The position numbers were made by a program, and so were the translations under genes. From assembly GCF_051903065.1 (NCBI RefSeq), contig NZ_CP178438.1: a stretch of DNA of 64,000 nucleotides; one strand, given 5' to 3'. The notes beneath the pieces were generated by a model. That model did no database searches. It was not told where the DNA came from and saw only the letters and a list, made by a program, of their open reading frames with translations. The DNA is from Escherichia coli. GTDB lineage: Bacteria > Pseudomonadota > Gammaproteobacteria > Enterobacterales > Enterobacteriaceae. This document shows, piece after piece, positions 40,309 through 43,639 of this stretch (positions are counted from its first letter, which is position 1; each line of letters opens with the position of its first letter).

Positions 40309-40975
40309 GGGAGAATTGTTTACGTGAGTGCAACGCGATAGAGATTTTCCGCCGCATAATCGTCAGAATAAGCGTCGATTTAATAGTTATGTAAGAGAAT
40401 CTTTACCGTTTCCATGAATGTACCTAAGGTCATTAGTTCTTTTCTGACAGCTTCCGGAAAATTTTTATGTAGAGCAGAAGGCGTAACAAGTCTATCCTCC
40501 CTCCGCTTCTTTCATTTTCTGGTATTGTGCCGGGGATACGCGTGGCAATTTCCGTGGCCATGGGGGGGCATCTTACTATACCTACGCTGAAGCGTGTGAA
40601 GGTCAGGGTATGATGACATGGTTAAATACTCACGGCCACTGCCTGACCTACTTGAGCAACGTACCGAAGCTGCTCAGCCCCGATAAACTAAGAAGCGCAG
40701 CGCTATGTTCCTGTCATCCACGACAGTAACCAGGCCCTGCAGAGTACTATGGTACGGTTATCATACCGGTTCACCCACGCAAACCAAAAGCACAAAAAAC
40801 GGTGTTTTCACCGTTGAAAGATAGCTGCTTGCCCGTATCCATAATGAAACCTTCCATGCACTCAGGACGTTGAATGGTAAGCATCCGGTGAACTCGCATT
40901 GCCGGCCGTTGTGAACCACGCCATTCTGCAGGTTCTTCCTTTATATGCAAAAGAGAGAAAACTGATGGCAAAAAA

Positions 40976-41263
40976 ATGACCCCGGCGCAGCGACGCCAGC
41001 ACTACGACGCCTGGCGCGTCAGCGGCATGTCCCGGACCGCGTATGCCCGGCAACACGGCATCAACAACAAAACTTTCTGGCATCTCTGCCGCGCCTTCTC
41101 CGCTGACGACGCCCGTGGCCCCGCTCCGGCTGATAACAGACCAGCCATCCTGCCGGTCACCCTCTCCGTCAGTGACACTGCCACCCTGAAACTTCAGTGC
41201 GCCTGCGTCACCGCCTCTCCGGCCGGCATCGCCGCCATCATCCGGGAGCTTAACCTGTGCTGA
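40976..41263 (+). CDS. IS66 accessory protein TnpA (orf1)
   Basis: 95-aa ORF, first gene of IS66 three-gene arrangement. Confidence 0.7.
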   Translation: MTPAQRRQHYDAWRVSGMSRTAYARQHGINNKTFWHLCRAFSADDARGPAPADNRPAILPVTLSVSDTATLKLQCACVTASPAGIAAIIRELNLC

Positions 41264-41595
41264 GCCCTCATTCCCTCTGGCTCGTCCGCGAGCCTGCTGA
41301 CATACGCGCCGGCATCGACTCCCTGACGCGACTCGCCACTCAGGCCGCCGGGCATCCGCCCCGGGAAGGCGAAGCCTTCCTCTTCACCGGGAAAAAACGC
41401 ACCCGCATGAAACTCCTGATGTGGGACCGCCACGGCGTCTGGCTCTGCACCCGCCGCCTGCACCAGGGCGCCTTCCGCTGGCCCCGCGACGGCGACACCA
41501 CCTGGTCGCTCACGGCGGAACAGTTCGCCTGGCTTACCGCCGGCGTTGACTGGCTGCGTCTCTCTGCCAGCCCCCTGCAGAGGTGGACTGAATAA
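41257..41595 (+). CDS. IS66 TnpB (orf2)
   Basis: 112-aa ORF ...LFTGKKRTRMKLLMWDRHGVWLCTRRLHQGAFRWP... typical IS66 Orf2. Confidence 0.8.
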   Translation: MLSPHSLWLVREPADIRAGIDSLTRLATQAAGHPPREGEAFLFTGKKRTRMKLLMWDRHGVWLCTRRLHQGAFRWPRDGDTTWSLTAEQFAWLTAGVDWLRLSASPLQRWTE

Positions 41596-41669
41596 CCTCC
41601 TGTGCCAGAATCATAATACGGGCAGCTTCTTATCAGGATGTTCCCGCCCGCCTCTGTCATCATGGCTGC

Positions 41670-43346
41670 ATGACAGATGACATCCTGAACACCACACAAA
41701 ACCCCGATGAACTGCGCCGTCTGGCAACAGCGCTGCTGACGGCACAGGCATGCGAATATGAGCAGCGCCTTCATAACCTGAATACCGTCAACACCACGCT
41801 GGAACAGCGCCTCCATAACCTGAATACCGTCACCACCACGCTGGAACAGCGTATCCATGACCTTAATGCCGCCATGCAGGCAGAAAAAACCGCATATGAA
41901 CAGCGCATCCGGGAGCTGGAGGAGGCCCTGAAGCTGGCCCACCAGTGGCGCTTCGGGCGTAAAAGCGAGCGCCTCCCGGCCAGCCAGAAAACACTGGCAG
42001 ATGAGGACGCGGCCAGCGATGAGGCTGATATCACCCGGCAACTGAGCGACCTGCTGCCGGTGAAGGAGAAAACCGGGAAGAAGCCGGCCCGTCACCCCCT
42101 GCCGGCACACCTGCCGCGACAGGAAACCGTACTCATGCCTGAGACCGGTAGCACCTGTCCGGACTGCGGAAGTGAAATGCGACATATCCGCGACGAGGTG
42201 AATGAGGTGCTGGAGTATGTACCGGCACACTTCGTGGTGAAACGGACCGTGAGACCGCAGTACAGTTGCCCGTGCTGCGACACGGTGCACAGTGCCGTGC
42301 TGCCGCCGGCAGTCATCGACAAAGGGCAGCCGGGTCCGGGTCTGCTGGCGCAGGTGGTGACCGCGAAGGTGCTGGATCACCTGTCACTGCAGCGGCAGCA
42401 GAAGATATACGCCCGTGAAGGGGTACAGTTGCCGGAAAGCACGCTGACGGACTGGTTCGGGCCGACGGCGGCGGTGCTGTCGCCGCTGGCGGCAGCCCTG
42501 AAACGTGACCTGCTCAGGCAACCGGTGCTGCAGGCGGACGAGACGCCGCTGCAGATACTGGATACGCGGAAAGGGAAAGTCCGGAAAGGGTACCTGTGAG
42601 CATACGTGAGTGCGGCGGGCAGTGCCCGGGACATCGTGGTGTACGACTGCCGTCCGGGGCGTGCGGGGCAGTATGCGTGTGAGATGCTGAGCGGGTGGTC
42701 GGGGACTCTGGTGGCTGACGGTTATGCCGGTTACCGGGCGCTGTTCCGTGACGGGCAGGAAGGGGCCCCTCCGGCGGCACCGGGTATCTGTGAGGCGGGG
42801 TGCATGGCGCACGTGCGCAGAAAGTTCATGGAGCTGTACAGAATGAACGGCAGTCCGGGGGCGAAGGAGGCGCTGAAACAGATACGGGCGCTGTATATCC
42901 TGGAGCAGACCATCCGGCAGCGTCCGGCAGAGCAGAAATGGCGATGGCGACGGCGGTACGCGAAGCCGCAGATGGAGGCGTTCCACAGCTGGCTGAGGGC
43001 GACGGAAAAGACGAGCGCGCCGGGTGGCAGGCTGCACGGTGCGGTGACGTATGCCCTGAAGCGTTGGCCGGCGCTGGAAACATACCTGAATGACGGACGG
43101 GTACCGCTGGACAACAACCGGAGTGAGCAGATGATGCGTCCGGTGGCGCAGGGGCGGAAGTCATGGCTGTTCGCGGGTTCGCTGCGGGGAGGAGAGCGGC
43201 TGGCGGAGCTGCTGACGCTGCTGCACACGGCGAGGCTGAACGGTCTGGAGCCAGTAGTCTGGCTGCGTGATGTGCTGGAGAAGCTGCCGTCATGGCCGGC
43301 GTCCCGGCTGGATGAACTGCTGCCTTACCGCCATCCGGCGGACTGA
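41670..43346 (+). pseudogene. IS66 TnpC transposase interrupted by an in-frame TGA at 42597..42599
   Basis: Two ORFs (309 aa + 246 aa) are in the same frame, separated only by TGA in ...KGYL*AYVSAAG... where IS66 transposases have Trp. Confidence 0.75.
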
Positions 43347-43639
43347 ATACGCCCTGCCATAACGCCGGTGATCGCGCCATGCGAGTTCACCGGATGCTTA
43401 CGTTGAATGTACGTTTTTGGGATTTACTGACGGATATGAATAACCGGCCCATGAAGGAGTACGGCAAAACCAGCGCAGAACACTTCCGTATGCGCTCATT
43501 TGGGGCGGGATTTGCACAGTATTCAGCTTCCAGAATCTGTACACTTTTCCACTCACACAGCTTCCTCAAAATACAGCCTATTGCTCTACGCTTCTCTCTG
43601 TAGAACACCTGTCTTCGGTATTTTGGCGCAAAAACTATG

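What the first reader, a model, noticed from the sequence alone, without database searches (positions are those of the whole stretch)
40877..43401. IS66 element with perfect 8-bp target duplication but a nonsense TGA inside the transposase
The perfect terminal repeats and intact gttgaatg duplication indicate a recent insertion, yet tnpC is split by an in-frame TGA at 42597..42599 where a Trp codon (TGG) is expected (...KGYL*AYV...). TnpC also has an internal tandem repeat (RLHNLNTVNTTLEQ twice). This is either a recent single-base inactivation or a sequencing error.
Basis: seen in the sequence. Interest (0 to 1): 0.4.

Follow-up and report, generated by a model that had tools for sequence, protein, structure and literature searches.

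The report
Dead IS66 insertion sequence, inherited stop codon
This is an ordinary, decaying IS66-family jumping gene whose transposase carries a real, inherited TGG-to-TGA stop mutation, and it sits at the same chromosomal spot in about 150 sequenced E. coli genomes, so it is neither a sequencing error nor a recent event.

Summary
Window 40877..43401 is a 2,525-bp IS66-family element (tnpA-tnpB-tnpC) with perfect 23-bp inverted ends. It is flanked by an 8-bp duplication, GTTGAATG, and has an in-frame TGA at 42597..42599.

The stop replaces a Trp codon. The closest intact relative found (Salmonella plasmid pSB109, 97.3% DNA identity) has TGG there. Trp fills that column in 116 of 116 homologues that cover it.

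It is not a sequencing error. 146 of 147 complete E. coli genomes holding this stretch carry the identical 61-mer with TGA, as do 4 metagenome contigs, and RefSeq already marks tnpC as a pseudogene with an "internal stop".

It is not recent. All 157 E. coli genomes with the element share one left junction, at one copy per genome, and none of 5,426 genomes has the empty site. The copies have since collected 11 nonsynonymous changes against 1 synonymous, a 12-bp deletion, and P239S at an invariant column.

The duplication is a true target-site duplication. Removing the element and one GTTGAATG restores a gap-free match to an intact IS21-family istA gene.

The 14-residue repeat is a variable coiled-coil unit, with 0, 1 or 2 copies in intact relatives.

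Verdict: an ordinary fossil insertion sequence in an IS-riddled island next to tRNA-Arg. Low interest.

The parts
40869..40876 (.). Left copy of the 8-bp target-site duplication, GTTGAATG
   Evidence: The intact istA homologue has a single copy, with no gap at the junction.
40877..40899 (+). Left terminal inverted repeat (IRL), 23 bp, GTAAGCATCCGGTGAACTCGCAT
   Evidence: 23/23 match with the right end, 0 expected by chance.
40976..41263 (+). tnpA, intact, 95 aa
   Evidence: ORF. It has no Pfam hit. RefSeq names the identical gene IS66 accessory protein TnpA, WP_000186597.1.
41257..41595 (+). tnpB (the IS66-type accessory protein), intact, 112 aa, overlapping tnpA by 7 nt
   Evidence: PF05717 TnpB_IS66, E = 1.4e-31. 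RefSeq WP_000950719.1.
41670..43346 (+). tnpC transposase pseudogene: 558 codons interrupted by one in-frame stop
   Evidence: With Trp restored it matches LZ_Tnp_IS66, zf-IS66, DDE_Tnp_IS66 (E = 1.7e-91) and DDE_Tnp_IS66_C. RefSeq flags it 'pseudo, internal stop'.
41766..41849 (+). Two tandem 42-bp (14-codon, two-heptad) units in the N-terminal coiled-coil region; a third, degenerate unit follows up to about 41871
   Evidence: TRF: period 42, 2.6 copies. pSB109 lacks one unit. Intact relatives have 0, 1 or 2 units.
42597..42599 (+). In-frame TGA replacing the invariant Trp310 codon (TGG), 20 codons after the nearly invariant Asp290 (inferred first catalytic Asp)
   Evidence: Present in 146 of 147 E. 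coli complete genomes.
42606..43346 (+). Downstream 246-codon ORF (GTG start) holding the rest of the DDE domain and the C-terminal element; probably untranslated or non-functional on its own
   Evidence: Gene callers call it as a separate gene in other assemblies.
43379..43401 (-). Right terminal inverted repeat (IRR), 23 bp
43402..43409 (.). Right copy of the 8-bp target-site duplication, GTTGAATG
40539..40868 (+). Left part of the disrupted target: a degraded IS21-family istA gene (continues through the left GTTGAATG at 40869..40876)
   Evidence: About 78% identical to intact istA of an ISSso4-like element. RefSeq: 'IS21 family transposase, frameshifted, partial'.
43410..43493 (+). Right part of the same disrupted istA remnant
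   Evidence: The alignment to intact istA runs without a gap across the reconstructed junction.

Best explanation
An IS66-family insertion sequence (tnpA-tnpB-tnpC, 2,525 bp) transposed once into the istA gene of an IS21-family element. That element lies inside a genomic island next to tRNA-Arg(CCT) on the E. coli chromosome. The insertion made the usual 8-bp duplication.

In the common ancestor of all copies seen today, a G-to-A change turned the invariant Trp310 codon of the TnpC transposase (TGG) into TGA. This cuts the protein 20 residues after the nearly invariant Asp290, which I infer to be the first catalytic Asp. The truncated product lacks roughly two thirds of the DDE_Tnp_IS66 domain and the C-terminal element.

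The element has since been a non-autonomous fossil. It is passed on with the island at one copy per genome, and its reading frames drift neutrally.

Shown: the anatomy, the ancestral Trp, the fixed stop, the single shared insertion site and the later decay. Inferred: loss of transposition activity, and the order of events (insertion first, stop afterwards).
For: - Anatomy: perfect 23-bp inverted ends, the 8-bp direct repeat, and Pfam DDE_Tnp_IS66, zf-IS66, LZ_Tnp_IS66, DDE_Tnp_IS66_C and TnpB_IS66.
- True duplication: deleting the element and one GTTGAATG gives a sequence that aligns without a gap across the junction to an intact istA.
- Ancestral Trp: TGG in the intact 544-aa TnpC of pSB109, which is 97.3% identical in DNA. 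Trp fills 116 of 116 homologues that cover the column, and Asp290 is nearly invariant 20 residues upstream.
- Real and fixed stop: 146 of 147 complete E. coli genomes have the exact 61-mer with TGA. The one variant (strain E9) differs at another base and keeps the stop. All 4 metagenome contigs also have TGA and the same flanks. RefSeq annotates 'internal stop'.
- One old insertion: 157 of 157 genomes have an identical 80-bp left junction, one copy per genome, all on chromosomes. No empty site exists in 5,426 genomes.
- Decay: seven copies at the same site differ by 12 SNPs (11 nonsynonymous, 1 synonymous) and a 12-bp in-frame deletion. The changes include R242W and G508E at nearly invariant columns. 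Substitutions not seen in any full-length homologue include P239S, where 103 of 103 homologues have Pro.
- No intact twin: the protein search returned no full-length protein above about 97% identity, while the 309-aa truncated product forms a cluster of 205 sequences.
Against: - tnpA, tnpB and both ends are intact. The element could therefore still be moved in trans by a closely related TnpC.
- UGA is the leakiest stop codon in E. coli, and near-cognate tRNA-Trp would insert the original residue (established knowledge, not tested here). A trace of full-length protein therefore cannot be excluded.
- The SNP sample is small (12 sites). The 11:1 ratio shows no sign of purifying selection but does not prove neutrality.
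Confidence: 0.9

Rival explanations
1. The TGA is a base-calling or assembly error, and the transposase is really intact.
For: None beyond the a priori possibility. It is a single-base difference from TGG.
Against: The identical 61-mer with TGA is in 146 independent complete assemblies from many laboratories and platforms. It is also in 7 of 7 copies compared base by base and in 4 of 4 metagenome contigs. The 309-aa product forms a cluster of 205 sequences.
Confidence: 0.01
2. The UGA is a programmed recoding site (selenocysteine insertion or regulated read-through) that limits transposase dosage.
For: UGA is the codon used for Sec and is the leakiest stop. tRNA-Trp read-through would restore the wild-type residue (established knowledge).
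Against: - Intact relatives encode plain Trp/TGG here.
- No homologue ends at this codon apart from this element's own copies.
- There is no Rfam match in 40700..43600 at E <= 1.
- The 64 nt from the UGA onward fold no better than shuffled sequence (z = 0.49).
- The frame after the stop is collecting damaging substitutions.
Confidence: 0.02
3. The 309-aa N-terminal fragment (coiled coil, zinc finger and DNA-binding part), together with the intact TnpA and TnpB, has been kept as a trans-acting regulator or inhibitor of incoming IS66 relatives. On this reading the stop is adaptive rather than mere decay.
For: The fragment keeps LZ_Tnp_IS66 and zf-IS66, and tnpA and tnpB remain open in all copies examined. 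The locus persists in about 3% of complete E. coli genomes. Truncated transposases do act as inhibitors in other IS families (established knowledge: Tn5 Inh, IS1 InsA).
Against: All five SNPs upstream of the stop are nonsynonymous (A86V, T108P, E169A, R242W, K303N), and the 12-bp deletion also falls in this fragment. P239S sits at an invariant column. The surroundings are an IS graveyard of pseudogenes. Persistence is explained by linkage to the island.
Confidence: 0.05

Closest known systems
IS66-family element on Salmonella enterica IncC plasmid pSB109 (NZ_CP101857.1, 103502..105985; TnpC WP_111995052.1)
   Same: 97.3% DNA identity over the whole element, the same tnpA-tnpB-tnpC layout, 23-bp ends starting GTAAGCATCCGGTGAA, and its own 8-bp duplication, GAAATTAC.
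   Different: - It has TGG (Trp) where the window has TGA, giving an intact 544-aa TnpC.
- It has one 42-bp unit instead of two.
- Both inverted ends read ..GAAGGCGCAT where the window has ..GAACTCGCAT, so the two ends changed together.
- It has A8 instead of A7 before the tnpA ATG.
IS66 family as defined on IS66, IS679 and ISEc8 (Han et al. 2001, J Bacteriol 183:4296; cited from my own knowledge and through PMC3469429, because the paper itself is not held)
   Same: Three consecutive genes with overlapping or coupled tnpA and tnpB, a DDE transposase TnpC of about 520-560 aa, inverted ends of about 20-30 bp beginning GTAAGC, and 8-bp target duplications.
   Different: This copy cannot make full-length TnpC. 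TnpC is only about 46% identical to the RefSeq-named ISEc49-type transposase (P0053), and RefSeq gives the element only the generic family name. Its ISfinder name, if it has one, could not be checked.
Intact relative in Logan assembly ERR4400455 (P0003, locus L006)
   Same: Its 554-aa TnpC is 88% identical and also carries two 14-residue units. It has the same 95-aa TnpA and 112-aa TnpB layout.
   Different: It has Trp at the stop position and an open frame. Its left end starts GTAAAGGTCCGG....

Membership tests
IS66 family insertion sequence | DDE transposase TnpC with the IS66-type domains | tested here: met
   PF03050 E = 1.7e-91, PF13005, PF13007 and PF13817, on the frame with Trp restored.
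IS66 family insertion sequence | Accessory genes tnpA and tnpB upstream of tnpC, with tnpA and tnpB overlapping | tested here: met
   tnpA 40976..41263 and tnpB 41257..41595 overlap by 7 nt. TnpB matches PF05717, E = 1.4e-31. TnpA has no Pfam hit but is RefSeq's IS66 TnpA.
IS66 family insertion sequence | Terminal inverted repeats of about 20-30 bp starting GTAAGC | tested here: met
   The 23-bp ends match 23/23, with 0 expected by chance. The family consensus is recalled from the literature, not checked here.
IS66 family insertion sequence | 8-bp target-site duplication | tested here: met
   GTTGAATG lies on both sides. An intact istA homologue has one copy and aligns without a gap across the reconstructed site. 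pSB109 has its own 8-bp duplication.
IS66 family insertion sequence | Autonomous element: a complete transposase reading frame and evidence of transposition | tested here: not met
   There is an in-frame TGA at codon 310. There is one copy per genome at one site in 157 genomes. This makes it a defective member, not a non-member.
Selenocysteine or programmed UGA recoding | A conserved UGA in functional homologues plus a downstream recoding structure | tested here: not met
   Homologues have Trp/TGG. There is no Rfam hit, and the downstream fold has z = 0.49.

The most novel reading that the evidence does not exclude
The stop is not pure decay. On this reading the 309-aa DNA-binding half of TnpC, with the intact TnpA and TnpB, survives as a resident inhibitor that dampens transposition of incoming IS66 relatives. 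Alternatively, tRNA-Trp read-through of the UGA yields a trickle of transposase with the original Trp, keeping the element barely mobile.
Probability: 0.04. Interest if true: 0.3.

Novelty: already known. Interest (0 to 1): 0.08.

Why it matters
It matters little beyond annotation. The locus is a textbook nested, decaying insertion sequence, and RefSeq already labels it as a pseudogene with an internal stop.

Three points are practically useful:
- The TGA can be trusted as real. tnpC should be annotated as a pseudogene, not as two genes.
- Perfect ends and a perfect target duplication are not evidence of a recent insertion when overall divergence is about 0.3%.
- The fixed junction (IS66 element inside istA) and the stop make a stable marker for this tRNA-Arg island lineage in E. 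coli.

Tried and rejected
- Selenocysteine or recoding context: the Rfam scan of 40700..43600 at E <= 1 gave nothing. The 64 nt from the UGA onward fold no better than shuffles.
- Empty target site in E. coli: a 107-nt reconstructed site found only the two half matches, and 0 of 5,426 genomes were uninterrupted. A 700-nt version searched in plasmids at low stringency did find intact istA homologues.
- Intact twin (TGG) of this exact element: two scans of 100,044 species-representative genomes found nothing, one with the 41-mer around the stop (either TGA or TGG) and one with the left end. The metagenome scan found 4 contigs, all with TGA at the same site.
- Another homologue stopping at the same codon: P0075 is also 309 aa but ends elsewhere.
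- Promoter and terminator scan of the element: nothing above the shuffle expectation.
- Reading Han et al. 2001 for the family definition: the paper is not held, so family traits are cited from memory and through PMC3469429.
- ISfinder name: it cannot be looked up with these tools.

Full report
**1. The observation**

- GTAAGCATCCGGTGAACTCGCAT lies at 40877..40899, and its exact reverse complement at 43379..43401. That is 23/23 matching, with no other copy in the window and 0 expected by chance.
- GTTGAATG abuts both ends, at 40869..40876 and 43402..43409.
- Three forward ORFs fill the element: 40976..41263 (95 aa), 41257..41595 (112 aa), and a 558-codon frame 41670..43346. The last is broken once, by TGA at 42597..42599 (...RKGYL*AYVSAAG...).
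- TRF reports a 42-bp repeat with 2.6 copies at 41763..41871.

One correction: the two full units differ at 2 of 42 bases, giving RLHNLNTVNTTLEQ and RLHNLNTVTTTLEQ.

**2. Identity**

With Trp put back, the long frame matches DDE_Tnp_IS66 (E = 1.7e-91), zf-IS66, LZ_Tnp_IS66 and DDE_Tnp_IS66_C. The 112-aa ORF matches TnpB_IS66. RefSeq names the three genes tnpA, tnpB and tnpC of an IS66-family element in identical copies. All structural traits of the family are met. The one trait not met is an open transposase frame.

**3. Is Trp the expected residue?**

Yes. The closest intact relative found is on Salmonella IncC plasmid pSB109, at 97.3% DNA identity with its own 8-bp duplication, GAAATTAC. It reads TGG at the homologous codon and encodes a 544-aa TnpC.

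I aligned 120 database homologues, down to about 42% identity. The column holds Trp in all 116 sequences that cover it. It lies in the motif G-Y/R-L-W-x-Y, 20 residues after the nearly invariant Asp290 of (A/G)-D-(E/D)-T. I infer that Asp290 is the first catalytic Asp.

The 309-aa product therefore keeps the coiled coil, the zinc finger, the DNA-binding part and about the first third of the DDE_Tnp_IS66 domain, including Asp290. It lacks the rest of that domain. No other homologue terminates at this codon.

**4. Sequencing error?**

No.
- A 61-mer centred on the TGA occurs in 147 of 5,426 complete E. coli genomes, and is identical in 146 of them.
- The single variant (strain E9) differs at 42578 and keeps the stop.
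- Seven copies compared base by base all have TGA.
- Four metagenome contigs matching a pattern that allowed either TGA or TGG all have TGA.
- The 309-aa product is a cluster of 205 sequences in the protein collection.

**5. Recent?**

No. An 80-bp probe across the left junction is 100% identical in 157 genomes. Each genome has one copy, and all copies are chromosomal. All copies inspected also have the same right flank. A reconstructed empty site is absent from all 5,426 genomes. So there was one insertion, and the stop arose before the present copies diverged.

Since then the copies have diverged by up to 8 SNPs plus a 12-bp in-frame deletion. Of the 12 SNP sites, 11 are nonsynonymous and 1 is synonymous. 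They fall on both sides of the stop and include R242W and G508E at nearly invariant columns.

Compared with close intact relatives, this lineage also carries substitutions seen in no full-length homologue (P239S, Q265P, R413Q, R424W, C485S) or in only one (R91H). Position 239 is Pro in 103 of 103.

At about 0.3% divergence only about 0.2 changes are expected in the 62 bp of ends plus duplication. Their perfection is therefore uninformative about age.

**6. Is the duplication real?**

Yes. Joining the 350 bp left of the element (including one GTTGAATG) to the 350 bp on the right gives a sequence that aligns in one piece to intact IS21-family istA genes. These are ISSso4-like, at about 78% identity. 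The alignment has no gap at the junction (...CTCAGGACGTTGAATGTACG... against ...CTCAGGGCGCTGAATGCGCG...).

The element therefore landed inside an IS21-family transposase gene. That gene is itself now a frameshifted fragment.

**7. The tandem repeat**

The repeat unit is 14 residues, or two heptads, in the N-terminal coiled-coil region.
- Intact relatives carry 0 units (P0122, E. coli, 530 aa), 1 unit (pSB109, P0001, P0002, P0004) or 2 units (P0003, 554 aa, with an open frame).
- It is a copy-number-variable spacer that is compatible with an open reading frame. It is unrelated to the inactivation.

**8. Recoding?**

Unlikely. There is no Rfam match and no unusual structure after the UGA (z = 0.49). 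Homologues have Trp, and the frame downstream of the stop is decaying.

Near-cognate read-through of UGA by tRNA-Trp would restore the original residue (established knowledge, untested here). It would still give a protein with P239S and the other substitutions. The single copy per genome argues against any residual activity.

**9. Setting**

tRNA-Arg(CCT) lies at 22005..22079. A tyrosine integrase gene follows, and it is split by an IS5-like element. Next come IS1, IS3, IS30, IS911, IS4, IS21, IS256-type and a second IS66-type remnant, scattered among an autotransporter gene, a GntR regulator gene and small ORFs. This is an immobilised, IS-riddled island.

Window 31693..47968 is 99.98% identical to strain ZF8-1. 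The adjacent core genes (7492..22888) are only 97.4% identical.

**10. Verdict**

This is an ordinary defective IS66-family element, fixed with its island and already annotated as a pseudogene in RefSeq. The alternatives it offered, a recent event or a sequencing error, are both wrong.

Novelty: already known. Interest: low.

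Noticed in passing
window 40966..40975 (A-run before the tnpA ATG at 40976): The window has A7 where pSB109 has A8, and L006 has AAAAAGAA. With A8 an upstream TTG frame runs into tnpA, and RefSeq calls a 121-aa TnpA there. With A7 only the 95-aa TnpA is open. It is unclear whether this homopolymer length affects the tnpA start or its expression.
   Followed up: partly
window 40892..40893 and 43385..43386 (both inverted ends): The window (and the left end of L006) read GAACTCGCAT, whereas pSB109 reads GAAGGCGCAT at both of its ends. The two ends of each element have thus changed together and stayed perfect complements.
   Followed up: no
window 22228..24511: The island's tyrosine integrase gene lies next to tRNA-Arg(CCT) at 22005..22079. 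It is split by an IS5-like element of about 1.06 kb (ORF 22945..23913, minus strand, DDE_Tnp_1_5/DDE_Tnp_1). The N-terminal and catalytic halves are separate ORFs, so the island is probably immobilised.
   Followed up: partly
window 7492..22888 compared with 31693..47968: Core genes (the sixA-fadJ-fadI-fadL-mlaA-yfdC stretch and neighbouring fimbrial genes) are only 97.4% identical to strain ZF8-1, while the island segment is 99.98% identical. This suggests horizontal spread of the island or strong local recombination.
   Followed up: no
window 24791..25558 and 47968..48736: Two IS1 copies, each 100% identical to the single IS1 copy in the ZF8-1 region compared (annotated there as IS1A family), bracket the island core. 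Compared with ZF8-1, the segment with Ag43/Cah, the GTPase gene and the zinc-ribbon genes is missing after the second IS1. An MFS transporter/alcohol dehydrogenase segment (26617..28903) is present after the first. These look like IS1-mediated rearrangements.
   Followed up: partly
window about 38668..38899 (inferred from L002 3792..4023; not checked in the window itself): This is a fragment of a second, different IS66-family transposase, abutting an IS4 fragment. In strain FDAARGOS_536 the same place holds a longer remnant, with tnpA, tnpB and a truncated tnpC.
   Followed up: no
E. coli strain VTB97585v, NZ_CP178711.1 1569236..1573109 (hit H58); protein P0133: In some genomes the dead tnpC has itself been hit by an IS4-like IS421 element. 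P0133 reads ...GKVRKSNNGDNNFPLKRCVRYLV. This is a third layer of nesting.
   Followed up: no
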